Shown here piece after piece: positions 1-49,910 of a stretch of 50,255 nucleotides of DNA; the stretch's first letter is position 1, and each line of letters begins with the position of its first letter. The notes under the pieces were generated by a model. It searched no databases, was not told the origin of the DNA, and saw only the letters and a list, made by a program, of their open reading frames with translations. The translations under genes were made by a program, and so were the position numbers. The stretch is from a virus. Lineage: Duplodnaviria; Caudoviricetes. The DNA is taken from positions 1 to 50,255 of IMG/VR virus record IMGVR_UViG_3300030059_003698; one strand, written 5' to 3'.

Positions 1-1143
1 CTAGGCTTTCCGTTTCCTTCCAAGCAAGCCTTCAATTGAGTGCACCGGTCTTTCACTGTGTCCAGATTGTGTCTGGCGCTGTTTTGCAACCTCTGCCGGT
101 GTGCTACCTGTTGTGCGATTGCCCAGCATGTTAACGGCATCGCGTGCACGGTGTGGGGCCAAGTGGGCGTACTTCTCTGTCATCTTCACCGTGGAGTGCC
201 CCAGCACATCTTTAACGTCCAGTAGCGGCACTCCCTGACTAACCATCCAGCTTGCGCAGGTATGCCGCAAGTCGTGGATCCGGAAATTGGCGATGCGCGC
301 GGCACTGCACGCCGTATTAAAGCCGTTTCGCAGATTGCCCAGTCGCTCACCATCCGCTTTTGCAAACACCCATTCGCTATGAGGGCAGTTGCTAGCTACC
401 CACACCCAGCGGCGTTTTAGTGCCGCGTTCGCCTCATCATTCAGCGGTACCGACCGGCGCTTTGCGCTCTTGTTGTCTTCACCTTCCAAGTGAAGTAGGG
501 CATTATCAAAGTCGACGCGTGACCATGTCATCTTGAGCAATTCATTCATGCGGGCGCCTGTATTGAGGCCCAATAGAATGAAGTCTGCTAACCTCTCACC
601 GCTACGCTGTGTTTTAGCTGCCGCTACCAACCTGTCCGCTTCTGAGTGAGTTAGCCACCGCACGCGTCCTTCTGGCTCCTTGAGCATCCTGCCTCTAACA
701 GGATTGCTCATGGGCCACTCTAAGTGAATGATCGCGTAGTTGATCATTGCGCTTAAGATTGAAAGCTCACGATTAATGGTTGCAGGTTTTACACCGTCTT
801 TCTGTCGCGCTGAAATGAACGCTCGCACGTCATCCCCTCGCATTTCCTCCATTACAAATTCAGCGCCGATATGGTCATAGAGCCTTGCAACGCGACGCTG
901 CATGTCGCCGTAAGAACGCTTGTGTTGGCTGGCACCGAGAAATTCGGCGGCGACCTCAGCAAAGGAATGCTGGGGCGATTTGCCCCAGGCGTTTTGCTGA
1001 TAGAGTTCTGATCGCCATTTTGATTCCAGCGCTTTCGCTTCCCGATAGTCTACCGTCCCAGTAGAACGTCTAATCGGCGTGCCGCCTCCCGGCGGGGTGA
1101 TTTTAGTCCACCAATACGATGAACCCTTACGTTTGTGGGGCAT
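1..1143 (-). CDS. int: Tyrosine recombinase phage integrase
   Basis: Catalytic motifs TGAR, HDLRHT, LGH and KYAH in a 380-aa ORF. Confidence 0.97.
   Translation of the reverse strand: MPHKRKGSSYWWTKITPPGGGTPIRRSTGTVDYREAKALESKWRSELYQQNAWGKSPQHSFAEVAAEFLGASQHKRSYGDMQRRVARLYDHIGAEFVMEEMRGDDVRAFISARQKDGVKPATINRELSILSAMINYAIIHLEWPMSNPVRGRMLKEPEGRVRWLTHSEADRLVAAAKTQRSGERLADFILLGLNTGARMNELLKMTWSRVDFDNALLHLEGEDNKSAKRRSVPLNDEANAALKRRWVWVASNCPHSEWVFAKADGERLGNLRNGFNTACSAARIANFRIHDLRHTCASWMVSQGVPLLDVKDVLGHSTVKMTEKYAHLAPHRARDAVNMLGNRTTGSTPAEVAKQRQTQSGHSERPVHSIEGLLGRKRKA
57..73 (+). promoter_or_regulatory. Putative integrase arm-type binding sites, left arm (inside the int 3' end)
   Basis: TGTGTCCAGATTGTGTC matches TGTGTCTAGATTGTGCC at 48924-48940 near attR. 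Confidence 0.6.
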
Positions 1144-7722: not shown

Positions 7723-8138
7723 GACGGCACCTCACTGGCGTATTCCCGCAAAAGCTCAAGCACACGCTTGCCGGTCAAGCGCTCGGTGACGGTGGGCGCG
7801 GGCCAGGGCTCATCAATGTTGAAGGTGCAGTCGCCAAAATCGAGGCAGCTCATTAGCACGTAGTCGAAAGCGTGTTCGTAGAATGTTGTGAACTCAGTGC
7901 CTTCCCCTAAGGCGGAATCCCATTCGCCGCCAATGCTGGGTATATGGTTCACGCTGACGCAAGCTTGCTCACATGCGCGCTTCGCTTTAGATGTTTTTGC
8001 AATGCAGCGTGGATAGGAGGCTTCGAATTCGTCATCAATCCAGGTGCGCTTAGCCTCTGCCTGAAAGTCGCGGCGCGGGCTGCCGGCATAGATAGCGAGC
8101 GCTTTCTTGCTGAGTTTTTTGAGAATGCGTGGCTTCAT
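7719..8138 (-). CDS. Hypothetical phage protein (MKPRILKKLSKKA type)
   Basis: AGGAG RBS; coupled ORF. Confidence 0.7.
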   Translation of the reverse strand: MKPRILKKLSKKALAIYAGSPRRDFQAEAKRTWIDDEFEASYPRCIAKTSKAKRACEQACVSVNHIPSIGGEWDSALGEGTEFTTFYEHAFDYVLMSCLDFGDCTFNIDEPWPAPTVTERLTGKRVLELLREYASEVPS

Positions 8139-8161
8139 GCGTAAAGACTCCTGATGCTGGC

Positions 8162-8374
8162 TTATGTCAGCCGGATGAATGAACCGAAGCTCTCAACCAC
8201 ACAGTCACGAGCCTCCATGGAAACCACCGCGCCTTGCTTGGCCGTTCGTACAACGAGCATTACCTGCAGGTCGCCGCCTCTTGCCACGGCCTGATGCGCC
8301 AGCTTGGTCATGCGCGCGCCTTTGAGTTCGTCTGCCATTGCCGCGAGGGCTTGTTCGATAGTGTTAATAGCCAT
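8162..8374 (-). CDS. Small hypothetical phage protein
   Basis: GGAGG RBS; operon position. Confidence 0.6.
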   Translation of the reverse strand: MAINTIEQALAAMADELKGARMTKLAHQAVARGGDLQVMLVVRTAKQGAVVSMEARDCVVESFGSFIRLT

Positions 8375-12354: not shown

Positions 12355-12600
12355 TTAGTGCCGCGGAAAGGCGCTTCCTTGAGAATCGCTCTTTTCCAGC
12401 ACATCAATTGCCGCCTGAATCCTCTCTATCAGCTCACGACCTTGAGCTGGTGTCATCGCGAACATTTGAGACTCTTGAGCTTCCTCGTTTTTTTGGAGCG
12501 CGTGACTCAAAAACTGGAACTTCAGAGCAATGATTTCGTGGGTGGGTACTGGCCCGATCTGCCAGCCAGCTACGGGAAATAGAGAAATTTCATTCGTCAT
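12355..12600 (-). CDS. bssS: BssS (YceP)-like biofilm regulator
   Basis: FPVAGWQIGPV..IIALKFQF..QMFAMTPAQGRELIERIQAAIDVLE..RH parallels E. coli BssS as recalled. Confidence 0.75.
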   Translation of the reverse strand: MTNEISLFPVAGWQIGPVPTHEIIALKFQFLSHALQKNEEAQESQMFAMTPAQGRELIERIQAAIDVLEKSDSQGSAFPRH

Positions 12601-12681
12601 TGTTCGACCTGTGATTGAGGTGTGTGAGAGCACTCAATCTAACCCTGGTCGAGTTTCTTTGCGAGTGGCAGGGGGTGCTGG

Positions 12682-13695
12682 ATGAGCATGCTCAACCTCC
12701 TAGACAGGCCAATAGCGTTCAACCGCACCTTCGTTGATCTGGGTATCGGCATCACTGGGGCGCTCATGCTATCGCAGTGCGTTTACTGGTCTACCCGTAC
12801 CAAGGACAGCGAAGGCTGGTTCTACAAGACGCAGGCTGAATGGACTGACGAAACGGGCATGACGCGCCGAGAGCAAGAGACCGCCCGTAAGAAGTTAGTC
12901 AGCAAGGGATACATCGAGGAGGTGCGCCGTGGCGTGCCTTGCAAAACCTATTACCGGCTTGATCGTGAGGCGCTGGAAGCCGCCCTTATTCAGGTTGCAC
13001 AAAAGCGCCATTCCAGTATGGCGGATTCCGCCAATCTAGAATGTACGAAAGCGCCATCCAGTATGGCGGAAAGCGCCAAACAAGATTGCACGGAAGCGCC
13101 TAACAGTGATGGCGGAAAGCGCCAAACTATTACAGAGATTACTACAGAGACTACAGCAGAGAGCACTCAGAAAGGCGCACCGGGGGCAAGCCCCGATGCA
13201 TCGGAGGGCGATTACCTGAGCGCTGACGAACCCCAAGCGGAAACCTCAGGCGATCAAGAGTCGGGAGCTGATCTGCTGGCGCGTATTCCTGCCGATATGC
13301 CGGGTACCCGTGACCCGAAAGCCAAAACGTTTAAACCCTGGGCGAACTACGCCTGTGCTTACCGTGCCCGTTACGGCACTTGGCCGGTCTGGAATCAAAA
13401 GGCTGGCGCGAACATGAGCCAGCTGGTCGACCGTGTGGGGGCTGAGCGTGCCCCCGCCGTGGCCGCGTACTACCTGAAACTCAACAGCCAGTTCTACACC
13501 TCACGCCTGCACCCCGTGGGCCTGCTCCTGCAGGACTGCGAATCCATCGCCACCCAACTCGCCACTGGCCAGCAGGTCACTCAGGCCAAAGCCCGCCAAG
13601 TGGACAGCACCCAAACCAACGCGAGCAACGCGGAGGAGGCTAAGCGCTGGCTAGCCGAACGCCGCCAACAGCAGGAGGCCGCATCATGCCGTTAA
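12682..13695 (+). CDS. Phage replication initiator (lambda O-like)
   Basis: LLDRPIAF..GALMLSQCVYW..WFYKTQAEWTDETG..EQETARKKL N-terminus; internal iterons. Confidence 0.85.
   Translation: MSMLNLLDRPIAFNRTFVDLGIGITGALMLSQCVYWSTRTKDSEGWFYKTQAEWTDETGMTRREQETARKKLVSKGYIEEVRRGVPCKTYYRLDREALEAALIQVAQKRHSSMADSANLECTKAPSSMAESAKQDCTEAPNSDGGKRQTITEITTETTAESTQKGAPGASPDASEGDYLSADEPQAETSGDQESGADLLARIPADMPGTRDPKAKTFKPWANYACAYRARYGTWPVWNQKAGANMSQLVDRVGAERAPAVAAYYLKLNSQFYTSRLHPVGLLLQDCESIATQLATGQQVTQAKARQVDSTQTNASNAEEAKRWLAERRQQQEAASCR
12995..13128 (+). repeat. Replication-origin iterons (six imperfect ~22-bp repeats, core GAAAGCGCCA)
   Basis: e.g. TATGGCGGAAAGCGCCAAAC, GATGGCGGAAAGCGCCAAAC, TATGGCGGATTCCGCCAATC inside the initiator gene. 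Confidence 0.75.
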
Positions 13696-14423
13696 CCCCT
13701 GAACAAATGGATCAGGTCGTTGATCTGGTTTACGCCACCGCGGAAGTGCTGGGTCAGGAGATCCGCCACAAGGCTGCCGGGCTGATCGCCGAAGACCTCA
13801 GCGCTTACCCCTTTGCCGAAATTGCCCGAGCGCTGGCCCGCTGCCGTGCCGAGCTACACGGCAAGCTGACCCTGGCGGCGATCATTGAGCGCCTACCTAG
13901 TGCGAACGCTCATTTGAGCGGTAACGAGGCGTGGGCGTTGGCGCTGAAAAGCACCGACGAGCAGGAGACGGTGGTTTGGACGCCGGAGATTGCCCGCGCC
14001 TTTGCCGCTGCTCAGCCGGTGCTGAGTGGTGACCGTCCGGACAAGATCGGTGCCCGCATGGCGTTCCTGGCTGCGTATGAGCGTGAGCTCTCCACCGCGA
14101 AAGCCGAAGCCCGCCAGCCAGAGTGGCAGGTGTCGCTAGGCCATGACCCGCAGCGCCGCGAGATCGTGCTGAACGATGCCGTGAGTGCTGGCAAGCTGCC
14201 CGCGCCTAAGGTGGCCCACTTACTGCCACCGCCTGATAAGCCGGTGACCGAAAAAGGCAAGCGCCAGCGTAAGCAGGTGGTCAGCAAGCTACGCGAGATC
14301 ATCAACCAGCCCGGTGACCAGAAAGCCCAAGAGCGCCGCGAAGCCCGCGAGCGTGAAGAGGCCCGCCGCCGTGAATTACTCGAACAAGCTGGCGTGCCGC
14401 TGGCTGCGATGGGAGGACGTTAA
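13686..14423 (+). CDS. Putative helicase loader / P-like replication protein
   Basis: Follows the initiator; ALARCRAEL..LTLAAII..EAWA..ARMAFLAAYER motifs. Confidence 0.7.
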   Translation: MPLTPEQMDQVVDLVYATAEVLGQEIRHKAAGLIAEDLSAYPFAEIARALARCRAELHGKLTLAAIIERLPSANAHLSGNEAWALALKSTDEQETVVWTPEIARAFAAAQPVLSGDRPDKIGARMAFLAAYERELSTAKAEARQPEWQVSLGHDPQRREIVLNDAVSAGKLPAPKVAHLLPPPDKPVTEKGKRQRKQVVSKLREIINQPGDQKAQERREAREREEARRRELLEQAGVPLAAMGGR

Positions 14424-44942: not shown

Positions 44943-45137
44943 ATGCACCTACGCATTGACGAGCAATGGCACTATGCCGAAGAGTGCGTGCGCGTCGATG
45001 GCCGGTGGCGTGCCGCCTCCCGCTGGGAGCGTATCAACGGCGAATGGGTGTTAACCCGTGACGCCCGGACATGGGCACTGCAGGGACTTGAATGGGAGGA
45101 TGATCATTTTTGGGAGGGGATACCCGGGAGTCAGTAG
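44943..45137 (+). CDS. Small Trp-rich tail-associated protein
   Basis: GGAG RBS; RIDEQW / RVDGRW / RINGEW repeats. Confidence 0.65.
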   Translation: MHLRIDEQWHYAEECVRVDGRWRAASRWERINGEWVLTRDARTWALQGLEWEDDHFWEGIPGSQ

Positions 45138-45139
45138 CG

Positions 45140-45160
45140 ACCGCCTTGAGCGGTTTTTTT
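45140..45160 (+). terminator. Late operon terminator
   Basis: ACCGC-CTTGA-GCGGT plus T-run. Confidence 0.75.
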
Positions 45161-45253
45161 GTGCTCAGATTAAACTTAAGTATAAGTATAGGCCTATATG
45201 GTCTAGCCAAAAGTCGCATATTGCCTCAATGACAACTAGGGTGAGAAGTGTCA

Positions 45254-45358
45254 GTGGCAGGAAGGCCTCTGTGAGAAACGGAAGTCACGCTCAGGATGAG
45301 CGGCACAAGCCAGGAAGGCACAAGATAATGAAGCGCCCCATTGCTGGGGCGCTTTTTT
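45254..45358 (+). ncRNA. CsrB/RsmY/RsmZ-like CsrA(RsmA)-sequestering sRNA (5' end approximate)
   Basis: Four A(N)GGA motifs (CAGGAAG, ACGGAAG, CAGGATG, CAGGAAG), each in a short hairpin loop, then a strong terminator AAGCGCCCC-ATTGCT-GGGGCGCTT plus T-run. Confidence 0.7.
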
Positions 45359-45438
45359 GTTAGGCGAAATTTTAAAAAATGTCTAAATTAATATGGGGCC
45401 TGCTTTAGTAGTTGGTCCAATCTCTAGCCTAGCCCTTT

Positions 45439-45462
45439 GGCCATCTTTTGATGGCCTTTTTT
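45439..45462 (+). terminator. Rho-independent terminator
   Basis: GGCCATC-TTTT-GATGGCC plus T-run. Confidence 0.7.
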
Positions 45463-45469
45463 GTGAGTG

Positions 45470-45487
45470 TGTAAGATATTGCTTACA
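45470..45487. promoter_or_regulatory. GacA/UvrY-box-like palindrome
   Basis: TGTAAG-ATATTG-CTTACA matches TGTAAG-N6-CTTACA exactly. Confidence 0.6.
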
Positions 45488-45635
45488 AGAAATATAGCGA
45501 TTGTCTTACACGCCTGACGCCATGATGGTGCTATGTTGGCTGGCGGGGGAGTCTAGTATCACTTTTGCCAAGGACGGCGCACTACCCTCCATCCTTTTAC
45601 TGGTACTCCTTCTTAAATTCCCTTCTCTTATTTGA

Positions 45636-46910
45636 TCAACTCGTAGCCGTAGGAAGCTCGTCCCATCGAGTGGTGTATCTCGGTGTCCGATGCTCGCAGC
45701 GAAGCTCCCAAGCGTTCTGTTTGCGAGGCATACCGAGGCGCACCGTCCCTTTGCCGTGCTCCCTGTTTAGTTTATCCAACGTAGCCATCAGTCGCTCATT
45801 TCTTTCTCGCTTCTCATAGCTCTGTGTCTCACCCAGCAATCCAAGCTGTTCGTTGTCGTGATCGCATAAGTCCATCAACATCACGCCGCACTTTTGATAC
45901 ATGATGCCTGGTTTGAATATCTGCTCAAGCCCTGCTGCAGCTGCGCGTACCAAGTCGCGGCTGTCGCACGTAGCGTAGGGCAGGGGCACTACAACGCTTT
46001 TGCTGTAACTCGGCAGGTCTGTCCGGAACCTGTTCGTGCGCACGAAAACCATTATCGCTTGGGCGAGTCCTTTCTGCTTACGCAACTTCTCCCCAGCGCG
46101 GGCGGTGTGTGTCCGTACAGCTTCCTGCAGGTCGGTTTTGTTCTGGGTAAGTCGCCCAAATGATCGGCTCACCATGATCTGCTTTTTCGGCTGGGTCATG
46201 TCATCAAGCGGGATACAGTCGACGCCGCGCAGCTCATAAACCAGGCGCTCCATTAGCACGCTGAAGTGCTTGCGCAGATGTTTAGGCGACGCCTCGCGCA
46301 ACTGCCAGGCTGTCTCAATACCCAATGTGTGAAGCCGTACCGCGCTACGCCCAGCAACGCCCCAGATTTCCTTGACCGGCAATTGCTGCAAAAACTCCCG
46401 GGTATCGTCACTGTCGGGTTCCATGATGGCCACGCCATCAAAGCCGCTTTCTTTTTTTGCCCGGTGGTTAGCAATCTTTGCGAGCGTTTTGGAAGTACTG
46501 AGCCCAACACTGACCGGTATGCCGGTATCGCGTTTAACCTGGCGCCGCATTACTTGGCAGCGATCAGTTAGCGTCTCAGTCTCAAACCCTTCAAACGAAA
46601 GAAATGACTCGTCGATGCTGTAAACATCAACGTGTGGTGTGTGCTGACTCAGAACGTCAGTAACGCGGCGGCTCATATCGCCGTAGAGAGCGTAATTACT
46701 CGATAGCAGTGTGCACTGGCGGCGAATATGTGGGTCGATCTGATGCGCAGGCATACCCATGGCCACGCCCAGCTGTTTGATTTCTGCCGATCGCGCTACC
46801 ACACAGCCATCGTTGTTCGACATTACGCCAACCGGCTTTCCTTCGAGCCGGGGCTGAAAGACGCGCTCGCAACTGACGTAGAAGTTATTGCAGTCGACAA
46901 GAGCGATCAT
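45636..46910 (-). CDS. umuC: Y-family DNA polymerase V subunit UmuC
   Basis: IALVDCNNFYVSCERVF.P, SNNDGC, SSNYALY, YSIDE, SRSFG, PRYTTRWDEL. Confidence 0.96.
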   Translation of the reverse strand: MIALVDCNNFYVSCERVFQPRLEGKPVGVMSNNDGCVVARSAEIKQLGVAMGMPAHQIDPHIRRQCTLLSSNYALYGDMSRRVTDVLSQHTPHVDVYSIDESFLSFEGFETETLTDRCQVMRRQVKRDTGIPVSVGLSTSKTLAKIANHRAKKESGFDGVAIMEPDSDDTREFLQQLPVKEIWGVAGRSAVRLHTLGIETAWQLREASPKHLRKHFSVLMERLVYELRGVDCIPLDDMTQPKKQIMVSRSFGRLTQNKTDLQEAVRTHTARAGEKLRKQKGLAQAIMVFVRTNRFRTDLPSYSKSVVVPLPYATCDSRDLVRAAAAGLEQIFKPGIMYQKCGVMLMDLCDHDNEQLGLLGETQSYEKRERNERLMATLDKLNREHGKGTVRLGMPRKQNAWELRCEHRTPRYTTRWDELPTATS

Positions 46911-47356
46911 ACGGCGAAGCCCGGCGCGAGCGAGTGAATGTTGTGGGTGACGACGCCCCACACTTCGCAATCGTGGCCCGTTAGCGCAATGGGTTTAAAG
47001 CTGGGGTTGGATGCGAACAGATAGGGCCGGTTGCCGATCTTGCCAAGTTTCTTGCACGTCAGCTCGCCATCAACGCTCATGATCACTATATGGCCGGGCT
47101 TGGGCTCAAGCGAGCGATCAACCACTAACAGATCATTGTCATAAATGCCATCACCTTCCATCGACGTGCCCTTGGCGCGCAAGAAATACGTGGCGCTAGG
47201 GTGCTGTACTAGATGGGCAACCAGATCAAGCTCAGCCTCCAGATAGTCATCAGCAGGTGAGGGGAAACCAGTACGAACAAAGCCACCGATAAGGGGGATG
47301 TTTACGGCAGGACCAGAGCTGTCAGCGCGGCCCAATACCGTCAGGTGCATGCTCAT
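46907..47356 (-). CDS. umuD: UmuD (S24 peptidase)
   Basis: GFPSPADDY, GTSM, LVVDRS, ELTCKKL, WGVV. Confidence 0.95.
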   Translation of the reverse strand: MSMHLTVLGRADSSGPAVNIPLIGGFVRTGFPSPADDYLEAELDLVAHLVQHPSATYFLRAKGTSMEGDGIYDNDLLVVDRSLEPKPGHIVIMSVDGELTCKKLGKIGNRPYLFASNPSFKPIALTGHDCEVWGVVTHNIHSLAPGFAV

Positions 47357-47620: not shown

Positions 47621-47824
47621 TAGTAGGTGCGGAGTATAGTCAGGGGAGGCTACAAAAATCTAGGGGGACTGGTCGCAATTTGGTCGCAGACTGTGTGCGA
47701 CCAATGCAACGTGTGTAAACATAGTAAAGCGATAAGAGGCTGATTTATCGGCGAAGCCTTGTGCAAGCGCGGCCCACCAGAATTGCAGAAGCGGATTCAA
47801 AATCCGCCGTGGCATTCAGGCCAA

Positions 47825-48966: not shown

Positions 48967-49066
48967 CTGCCTAATATTGAGAATATCGGTAATTCGGTAC
49001 ACACTGCGCCCAGCGTGTTAGTTTTTTAAATTCAGTGGGTTAGGGCGGTTGGTTCCCTAAAGAGTA

Positions 49067-49128
49067 GGTCTTGAAAACCGGCATAGGTTAATAGCCTATC
49101 CAGGGTTCGAATCCCTGTCCCTCCGCCA
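49067..49128 (+). tRNA. 3' fragment of tRNA-Ser(TGA) = attR core duplication (not a full tRNA)
   Basis: GGTCTTGAAAACCGG, long variable arm, GGTTCGAATCCC, CTCCGCCA; the 5' acceptor and D arms are missing. Confidence 0.88.
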
Positions 49129-49138
49129 CCTCGATACT

Positions 49139-49167
49139 AAAGCCCCTGATTCGTCAGGGGTTTTTTC
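49139..49167 (+). terminator. Original tRNA terminator
   Basis: CCCCTGA-TTCG-TCAGGGG plus T-run. Confidence 0.8.
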
Positions 49168-49875
49168 GTTTCTAGACTTTCTTTTTCCTTCCACAGAAAA
49201 CCCTCGGCGATGAAGGACAGTAGGTTTGCGCGTATCGGTGACGTCGTTTGAGCACGGCCACAGCAGACTCGCTGAGCGGTATCGTTATCGTTCGACGTTT
49301 TCCCGCTTTGCTGTCCTCTGGCTCTAAGGTAATCAGCGCATTTTTCCAATTTACACGGCACCACTACAGTTTTAACAGCTCGCCCTTGCATGCGCCTGGT
49401 TGGGCCAACTCTATAAAGTTGTCCCTGCGCTCGCCTTCGCGGATCGTTTGGCTTTCCCAATCAGTTTGCCTATCACCTTGTCGGCACCAAAGAAGTCATA
49501 GAGCTTGCCGGTACGCATCTTAATAACGGCCAATGACCGCTTATCCAGATTACCCTGCAGGTACTCGGCGACAGCTTCGGTCTGGGGTTTCGTCTCAATA
49601 GTACTGGCGGTAAACCTGAGCCTTACATTTCCTATCTGATACTTCCGCAGCTTGCTTGTCGATCATCTGAGTAGAGCGTCTAATTGGCTCAACGCCTCAC
49701 ACCGGGCAAGGGGATTTGCTCTGACTGGGTAAGCAGTTTCAGGATACACGTGTCGCTTGATCTGATATTAGCAAGTGGATGGATCAATCGCGTCAAAGCG
49801 TATAGATGAATCCTGACTACAAACGTCGTTAGCTTGAACGATTGCCACAGTGTTCAACCGGATTGCCGAAGTGCA

Positions 49876-49910
49876 GGGAAGGGAAGGGAAGGGAAGGGAA
49901 GGGAAGGGAA
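49876..49910. repeat. (GGGAA)7 microsatellite
   Basis: Seven perfect GGGAA units. Confidence 0.95.

What the first reader, a model, noticed from the sequence alone, without database searches (positions are those of the whole stretch)
45181..45358. Prophage-encoded CsrB/RsmY-like sRNA: a possible phage sponge for the host global regulator CsrA/RsmA
Seen: in the gap after the late terminator, about 100 nt hold four consecutive hairpins, each presenting a GGA in the loop: GGC-AGGAAG-GCC (45256), GTGA-GAAACGGAAG-TCAC (45271), CGCTC-AGGAT-GAGCG (45288) and GCC-AGGAA-GGC (45309), then a 9-bp GC-rich terminator. About 60-75 bp upstream is TATAAG-N6-CCTATA (45181-45198), three mismatches from the GacA box. 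Established: looped CAGGA(U/A)G repeats plus a terminator plus an upstream TGTAAG-N6-CTTACA define CsrB/RsmX/Y/Z sRNAs that titrate CsrA/RsmA. Inference: a non-coding lysogenic-conversion moron that shifts host motility, biofilm or carbon regulation, invisible to ORF annotation.
Basis: partly seen in the sequence, partly recalled or inferred. Interest (0 to 1): 0.88.

Follow-up and report, generated by a model that had tools for sequence, protein, structure and literature searches.

The report
Prophage-carried CsrA-decoy-like small RNA gene
A temperate phage of a Halomonas-type bacterium carries an intact copy of a small RNA that its hosts also encode, built like the decoy RNAs that soak up the global regulator CsrA, so the phage may retune host gene regulation, though neither the transcript nor binding has been seen.

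Summary
Window 45248-45358 (+) is not a chance cluster. It belongs to a conserved, structured, terminator-ended sRNA family of about 110 nt, found in a narrow group of Halomonadaceae (21 sequences). All four GGA triplets are nearly invariant, and 11 of 22 stem pairs show compensatory changes. No Rfam family recognises it.

This copy is phage cargo. It lies between the tail-fibre operon and a tRNA-Ser 3' fragment (attR, 49067-49128). Three related prophages or proviruses carry it in the same place, one of them integrated at a different tRNA. Hosts also hold chromosomal copies in housekeeping contexts, plus one csrA gene each.

The GacA part of the reading fails. None of 13 loci has a GacA box (2 mismatches or fewer) upstream. 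The perfect GacA box at 45470-45487 lies downstream and belongs to a second, decayed sRNA unit. Tandem "sRNA, GacA box, second GGA-rich sRNA" also occurs in chromosomes.

Expression and CsrA binding are untested.

The scan has noted similar phage-borne decoy candidates on other DNA (e1-5767145, e1-6115776, e1-6081099).

The parts
1..1143 (-). Tyrosine integrase, complete 380-aa ORF. It marks the left end of the prophage.
   Evidence: ORF listed without an open-end flag. Pfam Phage_integrase, E = 2.2e-34.
45139..45160 (+). Intrinsic terminator of the late (tail-fibre) operon.
   Evidence: Terminator scan. Conserved in the related prophage loci.
45183..45199 (.). Conserved upstream element TAAG-y-ATA-N3-CTATAT. 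In the window it contains the 12-nt palindrome TATAGGCCTATA.
   Evidence: Invariant columns T46 A47 A48 G49, A51 T52 A53 and C57-T62 in the 5-sequence upstream alignment A2. 3 mismatches to the GacA consensus. The binding protein is unknown.
45213..45242 (+). Inferred weak sigma-70-type promoter: -35-like GTCGCA/TCGCAT and -10 TAGGGT at 45237-45242.
   Evidence: Inference from conserved blocks in A2. The consensus promoter scan found no promoter here.
45248..45358 (+). The sRNA itself (about 111 nt), with GGA triplets at 45260, 45280, 45294 and 45313.
   Evidence: Covariance model R1: 111.1 bits, E = 3.8e-22, full length. Alignments A1 and A3. Pair counts.
45330..45355 (+). Rho-independent terminator of the sRNA.
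   Evidence: 11 pairs, 7 G-C, followed by a T-run. 98.8% of cells paired across 21 sequences.
45360..45468 (+). Spacer specific to this window, ending in a second terminator (45439-45456).
   Evidence: Terminator scan. Fold z = -1.97. Absent from the G279 and L160 relatives.
45470..45487 (.). Perfect GacA/UvrY-type box, downstream of the sRNA.
   Evidence: 0 mismatches, the only such site in the window. Boxes stand in the same position after family members in other loci.
45488..45635 (+). Decayed second sRNA unit (B'). It keeps the promoter-proximal half-site and one GCC-AAGGAC-GGC hairpin, and has no significant fold.
   Evidence: Compared by eye with the intact box-driven sRNAs in L113, L147 and L149. 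Fold z = -0.69.
45636..47356 (-). umuC (45636-46970) and umuD (46907-47356), carried as cargo next to the sRNA.
   Evidence: Pfam IMS, IMS_C and DUF4113; Peptidase_S24.
47670..47809 (+). Fossil attachment-site arm plus the start of a tRNA-Leu(CAA) fragment.
   Evidence: About 85% identical over 140 nt to the arm that precedes the tRNA-Leu 3' fragment ending the G272:C24 prophage.
49067..49128 (+). 3' 62 nt of tRNA-Ser(UGA): the attR repeat and right end of the integrated element.
   Evidence: 58 of 62 identical to the intact tRNA-Ser of L145 from the anticodon stem to CCA, with the 5' half missing. It is the only copy in the window. In run X1, 49067-49175 is a 109-nt unitig at depth 44.6 against about 27 for its flanks, and a second entry comes from the tRNA-Ser 5' half.

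Best explanation
Window 45248-45358 (+) is a real, independently terminated sRNA gene of about 110 nt. It belongs to a family confined to a subgroup of Halomonadaceae. This copy is cargo of a siphovirus-type prophage integrated at tRNA-Ser. It sits in the accessory slot between the tail-fibre operon and the attachment site, beside umuDC.

The RNA displays three to four (A/C)NGGA sites about 14-20 nt apart, in loops or other unpaired stretches. By analogy with RsmX/Y/Z, RsmV/W and CsrB/C, the most likely mechanism is that it binds dimers of the host's single CsrA protein and lowers free CsrA. In a lysogen it would add to the host's own chromosomal copies.

Its transcription is probably not wired to GacA in the classical way. 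It appears to use a weak sigma-70-type promoter behind a conserved palindromic element whose binding protein is unknown. Read-through of the late terminator during lytic growth could also produce it.

Shown: the gene family, its structure, GGA conservation, its location in the prophage, and csrA in hosts. Inferred: the transcript ends, CsrA binding, and any phenotype.
For: 1. Family and structure.
- 15 hand-curated homologues are 76% identical per column on average. G33 G34 A35, G47 G48 A49 and G66 G67 A68 are invariant, and G13 G14 nearly so.
- GGA columns are 99% conserved, against 81% for the other 70 body columns.
- On 21 sequences, 95.7% of cells are paired, against 39-49% when partners are slid. 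11 of 22 pairs have compensatory changes, and 0 of 500 shuffles reach the covariation score (this alignment is fitted to the model). On the MAFFT alignment the figures are 96.6% paired and 2 compensatory pairs.
- GGA triplets have a mean P(unpaired) of 0.86, against 0.41 for other body bases, over 15 sequences.
- 1-nt indels in A1 rule out a shared reading frame.

2. It is not a dispersed repeat. There are at most 3 copies per genome.

3. It is phage cargo.
- Terminase, portal, head, tape measure and tail proteins are present, and an integrase sits at 1-1143.
- The tRNA-Ser 3' fragment at 49067-49128 points away from the phage, so the intact tRNA must lie to the left of the window.
- In G272:C24 the order is tail genes, sRNA, att arm, tRNA-Leu(CAA) 3' fragment, then host ExoD/AraC genes.
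- In G279:C13 (and provirus L158) and provirus L160, the sRNA follows tail genes and precedes umuC.
- The phage copies resemble each other (80-98%) more than they resemble the chromosomal group (64-73%).

4. The target exists. One csrA gene was found in each of 4 of 4 host genomes tested, and none in the phage.

5. Precedent. Four looped GGA sites suffice for RsmA sequestration by RsmV, which is GacA-independent (10.1101/315341, passages read).
Against: - No transcript evidence: no RNA run holds the locus.
- No binding data.
- No Rfam Csr/Rsm model reaches its threshold.
- In this copy GGA #2 is predicted to be paired (P unpaired = 0.04), and the four-hairpin fold is 11 kcal/mol above the MFE.
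- The stem of hairpin 2 is not in a conserved register across the family (reading of A1).
- The consensus scan finds no promoter.
- The neighbouring B' unit has decayed, so the accessory region is not uniformly maintained.
- One family member (G251, L164) has lost most of its GGAs.
- Most compensatory changes come from a model-fitted alignment.
- Four sites are few compared with CsrB.
Confidence: 0.58

Rival explanations
1. The sRNA is real and CsrA-type, but it is a neutral passenger. A block of host DNA (sRNA, second sRNA, umuDC) was picked up by the phage lineage and gives the lysogen no regulatory effect worth selecting.
For: - Hosts already have 1-2 chromosomal copies.
- The tandem 'sRNA, GacA box, second sRNA' layout and the 'box-driven sRNA next to umuC' layout both exist in chromosomes with no phage genes within 6 kb. 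This suggests capture from a host.
- The second unit has decayed in the phage copies.
Against: - The first sRNA is kept intact, with all GGAs, in all 4 phage-linked loci, although their tail proteins have diverged to 39-44% identity and their integration sites differ.
- One phage (G272:C24) kept the sRNA but not umuDC.
Confidence: 0.2
2. It is a structured sRNA with another mode of action, such as base-pairing with mRNAs (with or without Hfq) or binding another protein. On this reading the GGA triplets are conserved for that reason and not for CsrA.
For: - There are only 3-4 GGA sites.
- The 5' UGUC and the linker ACAAG are also conserved.
- The U-rich terminator tail is of the kind that Hfq binds (general knowledge).
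- There is no Rfam Csr/Rsm match.
Against: - The most conserved, mostly unpaired positions are exactly the GGAs, and the stems around them covary.
- CAGGAUG in the loop of hairpin 3 fits the CANGGAYG-type consensus quoted in 10.1101/315341.
- The gene sits in tandem with GacA-box-driven GGA-rich sRNAs and shares a 5' end motif with them.
Confidence: 0.12
3. One reading: transcription is GacA-dependent through the degenerate box at 45181-45198, making this a classical Gac-Rsm sRNA.
For: - The left half (TAAG) is invariant in the 5 group-1 promoters.
- The element lies at about -69 to -52 from the inferred start, near where GacA boxes sit.
- A perfect box lies 111 nt downstream.
Against: - 0 of 13 loci have a box with 2 or fewer mismatches within 500 nt upstream.
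- The same genomes keep perfect boxes elsewhere: 16 in 4 genomes, against 0 for the backward control.
- The right half is consistently CTATAT, not CTTACA.
- The element lies about 6 nt closer to the -10 than the box does in L113 (my count).
- Chromosomal copies have a different promoter, TTGTGC-N17-TAGTAT, with no box.
Confidence: 0.12
4. It is not a gene. The alternatives are a chance run of hairpins, a REP-like dispersed repeat, or simply part of the attachment-site region.
For: - GGA density alone is only in the top 1% or so.
- Earlier scan notes found GGA hairpins that turned out to be mobile repeats (e1-4894085, e1-3330389).
Against: - It is conserved over its full length in 21 loci, with covariation and its own terminator.
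- There are 1-3 copies per genome.
- It is found in unrelated chromosomal contexts.
- It is separate from both att fragments.
Confidence: 0.03

Closest known systems
RsmX / RsmY / RsmZ of Pseudomonas (Rfam RF02144, RF00195, RF00166; clan CL00106)
   Same: - Size of about 110-125 nt.
- Several (A/C)NGGA sites in loops or unpaired stretches.
- Strong Rho-independent terminator.
- Multiple sibling genes per genome.
- Found in a gammaproteobacterium with GacS/GacA and one CsrA.
   Different: - No significant match to any of these models. The best is 14.8 bits to RsmY (cut-off 57) for a chromosomal sibling, and nothing for the window copy beyond a terminator-only CsrC hit.
- No GacA box upstream.
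- Only four GGA sites.
RsmV and RsmW of Pseudomonas aeruginosa (GacA-independent RsmA/RsmF decoys)
   Same: - Few GGA sites (four looped ones are functional in RsmV).
- No positive control by GacA.
- They act beside the main Gac-driven decoys (10.1101/315341, passages read).
   Different: - No sequence relation was tested or expected.
- RsmV and RsmW are chromosomal and species-restricted. This one also rides on prophages.
- GacA-independence is inferred here only from the missing box.
csrA/rsm protein genes on phages and plasmids (Sobrero and Valverde 2020, PMC7366521)
   Same: Mobile elements carry a component of the Csr/Rsm circuit, presumably to retune the host.
   Different: - Those are the protein. 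Here it is the antagonist RNA.
- This phage has no csrA.
- The passages I read in that paper list the Halomonas sRNAs as 'Unknown' and mention no phage-borne decoy RNA.
Prophage-encoded regulatory sRNAs of enterobacteria (e.g. svsR, PMC12803456, seen as search listing and abstract only; DicF and others recalled)
   Same: A non-coding gene in a prophage accessory region, likely expressed in the lysogen.
   Different: Those act by base-pairing. This one has the anatomy of a protein decoy and has chromosomal siblings in the host.

Membership tests
Rfam Csr/Rsm clan CL00106 (CsrB, CsrC, RsmX, RsmY, RsmZ) | Score at or above the family's gathering threshold | tested here: not met
   - No hit in the whole window at gathering scores.
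- At E up to 10, the only hit is CsrC model positions 207-244 (the terminator): 15.8 bits against a cut-off of 61.
- The chromosomal sibling L155 scores 14.8 bits to RsmY against 57, E = 0.47.
Csr/Rsm-type decoy sRNA (functional class) | Several GGA motifs, conserved and presented unpaired or in hairpin loops | tested here: met
   - Four GGAs are invariant or nearly so.
- GGA columns are 99% conserved against 81% elsewhere.
- Mean P(unpaired) is 0.86 against 0.41.
- In the window copy, three of the four are unpaired.
Csr/Rsm-type decoy sRNA (functional class) | Stand-alone non-coding transcript ending in a Rho-independent terminator | tested here: met
   - The terminator is found and conserved, with 98.8% of cells paired.
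- 1-nt indels rule out coding.
- Neighbours differ between loci.
- The transcript itself has not been observed.
Csr/Rsm-type decoy sRNA (functional class) | GacA/UvrY box TGTAAG-N6-CTTACA upstream of the promoter | tested here: not met
   - 0 of 13 loci have a box with 2 or fewer mismatches within 500 nt upstream.
- The window has only the 3-mismatch site at -67.
- The perfect box is downstream.
Csr/Rsm-type decoy sRNA (functional class) | Binds and titrates CsrA/RsmA | not testable with these tools
   The complex predictor takes no RNA. A csrA gene is present in 4 of 4 host genomes.
Csr/Rsm-type decoy sRNA (functional class) | Expressed as an RNA of about 100 nt | not testable with these tools
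   No RNA holder is listed for the locus.
Halomonadaceae sRNA family defined here (model R1) | Full-length match to the covariance model, with all four helices | tested here: met
   111.1 bits over model positions 1-110. The window sequence was part of the seed alignment, so this match is partly by construction. Independent members not in the seed were found at 33-117 bits (L156, L162, L163, L164, L165, L166, L168).
Prophage accessory gene (moron) | Lies inside the integrated element, outside the core operons, with its own terminator, and is kept in related phages | tested here: met
   - It lies between the late terminator and attR.
- It is kept in 3 further phage-linked loci at 2 integration sites.

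The most novel reading that the evidence does not exclude
Temperate phages of Halomonadaceae carry, and selectively keep, a GacA-uncoupled decoy RNA for the host's global regulator CsrA. It would be switched by the conserved palindrome upstream or by late-operon read-through. The phage, rather than the host's Gac signal, would then decide when CsrA is released, in the lysogen or at the lytic burst. This would be a virus-borne protein-sponge RNA aimed at a global post-transcriptional regulator. With the similar candidates this scan has noted in other phages, it would be part of a recurrent viral strategy.
Probability: 0.3. Interest if true: 0.8.

Novelty: new variant of a known kind. Interest (0 to 1): 0.6.

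Why it matters
- CsrA/RsmA controls motility, biofilm and exopolysaccharide, carbon storage and secondary metabolism across Gammaproteobacteria. Its activity is set by decoy RNAs.
- Phage- and plasmid-borne csrA protein genes are documented (PMC7366521). My five literature searches turned up no phage-borne decoy RNA.
- The Csr sRNAs of Halomonas are listed as unknown or uncharacterised (PMC7366521 and PMC12889724, passages read).
- This locus therefore offers two things. First, candidate Csr sRNAs for the Halomonadaceae, including a tandem layout of a box-less sRNA followed by a GacA-box sRNA. Second, a cultivable, non-pathogenic system for testing whether a prophage rewires a global post-transcriptional regulator with a non-coding gene that ORF-based annotation misses.

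Tried and rejected
- **Exact-pattern scans for the window's own hairpin spelling.** They found nothing in viral contigs or genome contigs. Looser motifs found L158, L159 and L160 plus one false hit inside a coding region, L161.
- **BLAST of the locus against other collections.** No match among cultured-phage records or plasmids.
- **The four closest umuC-bearing genomes (G001-G004).** They hold no homologue of the sRNA, so the host clade is narrower than 'Halomonas'.
- **attB hypothesis.** I considered that the sRNA might be the displaced 3' end of a host gene used as attB. I rejected this because the att fragments are tRNA-Ser and tRNA-Leu pieces elsewhere, and the sRNA is complete with its promoter region.
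- **GacA box acting on the minus strand.** I considered that the box at 45470 might drive a minus-strand RNA. That strand has no GGA-rich product.
- **Single-sequence MFE control for 'GGA in hairpin loops'.** It did not single out the locus. The one window with 4 looped GGAs was 45061, in the last late ORF. I therefore rely on comparative evidence.
- **Drawing error.** A first hand-drawn four-hairpin string was misdrawn (+3.6 kcal/mol) and was redone.
- **RNA evidence.** No RNA holder is listed for the locus. The DNA contigs I laid gave boundary information only.
- **CM search of 151 sampled genomes.** It scored only 25 candidates per genome, so the counts are lower bounds.
- **G279:C13.** There the intact tRNA-Ser next to umuDC has the opposite orientation to the window's fragment. 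I could not place that prophage's right boundary. A simple 'aberrant excision' origin of the cargo is not supported.
- **Supplements.** The supplementary tables of PMC7366521 (phage csrA lists) could bear on prior art and were not seen.

Full report
**1. The observation.**
- The four GGA-bearing inverted repeats begin at 45256, 45271, 45288 and 45309, with GGA at 45260, 45280, 45294 and 45313.
- The terminator is at 45330-45355 (11 pairs, 7 G-C), and the late-operon terminator at 45139-45155.
- TATAAG-N6-CCTATA is at 45181-45198, three mismatches from the GacA consensus.
- The segment folds better than shuffles (z = -4.41).

Two caveats come from my own controls.
- GGA density is only in the top 1% or so: 105 of 10,036 windows hold 4 or more GGA.
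In the ensemble, GGA #1, #3 and #4 are unpaired, but #2 is paired (P unpaired = 0.04).

**2. Setting.**
The window is an IMG/VR provirus record, and its 'genome' is this contig alone.
- It encodes terminase, portal, major head, tape measure and tail proteins, and a complete integrase at 1-1143.
- After the tail-fibre genes come, in order: the sRNA; a spacer with a second terminator; a perfect GacA box (45470-45487); a poorly structured remnant; and umuC/umuD on the minus strand.
- The UmuC protein places the host in Halomonas/Vreelandella. It is 79-85% identical to four named genomes.

**3. It is a gene family.**
BLAST of 45140-45640 against 342 Halomonadaceae genomes found homologues of the sRNA body in 9 genomes (13 loci at E of 1e-5 or lower), plus a decayed one.

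Fifteen sequences align with 76% mean column identity. Three of the GGA triplets are invariant and the fourth nearly so.
- GGA columns are 99% conserved, against 81% for the other body columns.
- RNAalifold and my four-helix structure give 96.6% paired cells, against 32-50% in slid controls.

A covariance model recovered the window copy at 111 bits. It also found further, more distant members that keep the 'GGA in a loop' plan with different stems.
- On 21 sequences, 11 of 22 pairs show compensatory change and 95.7% of cells pair. This alignment is model-fitted, so it leans toward the structure.
- Helices 1, 3, 4 and the terminator are supported. Hairpin 2 has no conserved register, so GGA #2 sits in a variable context.
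- Copy number is 1-3 per genome, so this is not a dispersed repeat.
- The family is narrow: 5 of 151 sampled genomes gave a CM hit, with heavy filtering.

**4. It is phage cargo here.**
ARAGORN's 'tRNA-Leu' at 49034-49128 is in fact the 3' 62 nt of tRNA-Ser(UGA), 58 of 62 identical to the intact gene in L145 and lacking the 5' half.
- It is the only copy in the window.
- It points rightward, so the intact gene, and hence the other end of the inserted DNA, must lie left of the window, next to the integrase.
- In run X1, a possible source of this DNA, 49067-49175 is a two-copy unitig. It is entered both from the phage side and from the tRNA-Ser 5' half.

Independent support comes from G272:C24. 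There the order is tape-measure and tail homologues, then the sRNA, then an att arm, then a tRNA-Leu(CAA) 3' fragment, then host ExoD/AraC/cyclodeaminase genes.
- The window keeps an 85%-identical fossil of that arm at 47670-47809.

Two more phage-linked loci have the order tail genes, sRNA, umuC: G279:C13, which is nearly identical to provirus L158, and provirus L160.
- The phage copies are 80-98% alike and only 64-73% like the main chromosomal group.
- Tail proteins of L160 and the window are only 39-44% identical.

**5. Hosts have their own copies.**
Chromosomal members sit by Mn-catalase, MutY, AsmA and a tRNA Thr-Gln-Phe cluster, or by NlpA, GAF and tRNA-Val. They have a better sigma-70-like promoter. 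G279 and G272 each carry both a phage-linked and a chromosomal copy. Each of four host genomes has one csrA, and the phage has none.

**6. The GacA question.**
Perfect GacA boxes are real signals in these bacteria. Four genomes hold 16 of them, against 0 for the backward control. They precede GGA-rich sRNAs that Rfam also misses.

Yet none of 13 loci of this family has a box with 2 or fewer mismatches within 500 nt upstream. Instead a box lies downstream:
- perfect in 5 of 13 loci (window +111, L147 +15, L152, L153 and L155 at +181 to +194);
- one mismatch in L157.

In those chromosomal loci the box drives a second GGA-rich sRNA on the same strand. So the native layout is a tandem pair: a box-less sRNA, then a GacA-box sRNA. 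The two share a 5' motif (CTAGGGTGA..GTGT) and are probably paralogues.

In the phage copies the second unit has decayed, while the first is intact.

Its right half is consistently unlike a GacA box. What binds it is unknown.

**7. Mechanism.**
The best-supported reading is a CsrA decoy. It has three to four conserved, accessible (A/C)NGGA sites 14-20 nt apart on a stable, terminator-ended RNA, in a host with CsrA, next to Gac-driven GGA-rich siblings. RsmV shows that four looped GGAs suffice and that such decoys can be GacA-independent (10.1101/315341, passages read).

These steps are inferred: the start site near 45248, the promoter, CsrA binding, dosage effects in the lysogen, and possible production by late-operon read-through.

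**8. Comparison and novelty.**
It works like RsmX/Y/Z and RsmV/W, but it fails the membership test for every Rfam Csr/Rsm family and lacks the GacA box. Literature:
- Halomonas Csr sRNAs are 'Unknown' in a table passage of PMC7366521 and 'Uncharacterized' in a table passage of PMC12889724.
- Phage-borne csrA protein genes are described (PMC7366521).
- Five full-text searches gave no phage-borne decoy RNA. One possibly relevant 2026 preprint could not be opened.

Earlier notes of this scan report similar, equally untested, phage-borne candidates on other DNA.

I class it as a new variant of a known kind. The gene, its family and its phage linkage are well supported. The function is still an inference.

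Noticed in passing
window 45470-45635: A perfect GacA box is followed by a decayed sRNA unit (one GCC-AAGGAC-GGC hairpin, fold z = -0.69) that converges on the umuC stop. Intact box-driven GGA-rich sRNAs occupy the same place next to umuC in Halomonas sp. H2, H. casei and V. neptunia (L002-L004).
   Followed up: partly
L147 (G333), L149 (G330), L152, L153, L155, L157: Chromosomal tandem layout: this sRNA family, then a GacA box, then a second GGA-rich sRNA with 4-5 GGAs. There are at least two different downstream sRNA types, and no Rfam match in the one region scanned (L155; types by eye). These are candidates for the unknown Gac-Rsm sRNAs of the Halomonadaceae.
   Followed up: partly
L105 (IMGVR_UViG_2885257956_000001) 8120-8316, minus strand: Another viral contig carries the very same 18-nt GacA box as the window. 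It is followed by an unrelated sRNA-like sequence with 8 GGAs that ends in a GGA-loop terminator, next to a small ORF. This may be a second, independent case of a phage-borne Rsm-like RNA.
   Followed up: partly
L108, L116, L118 (G001, G002): Perfect GacA boxes, often doubled, lie about 100-130 nt upstream of what look like protein-coding starts with a strong AGGAG site. This suggests direct GacA control of some protein genes. The proteins were not identified.
   Followed up: no
window 49034-49128: ARAGORN calls a 95-nt tRNA-Leu(tag) here. It is really a tRNA-Ser(UGA) 3' fragment (attR) fused to unrelated sequence, and Rfam does not call it.
   Followed up: yes
window 47670-47809: A fossil att arm with TGGTCGCA repeats and the first part of a tRNA-Leu(CAA) fragment. 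It is homologous to the functional-looking att end of the G272:C24 prophage, which implies a swap of the integration module in this phage's history.
   Followed up: partly
window 45061-45143: The 3' end of the last late ORF (44943-45137) is very GGA-rich. It was the only 83-nt window whose MFE puts 4 GGAs in hairpin loops in my control. It is probably coding-driven, but it lies just before the late terminator and the sRNA.
   Followed up: no
window 49868-49907: A short tandem GGAAG/GGGAA repeat (10-nt period, 3 or more copies) in the host flank. Assemblies of run X1 break there.
   Followed up: no
L164 (G251:C43): A family member that keeps the terminator and hairpin 3 but has lost the other GGA sites. 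It is apparently a decaying copy.
   Followed up: no
L145 (G279:C13) 12423-14154: In the closest relative, umuDC is followed by an endonuclease I gene and an intact tRNA-Ser in the opposite orientation to the window's fragment. That prophage's boundary and the origin of the cargo block remain unclear.
   Followed up: partly
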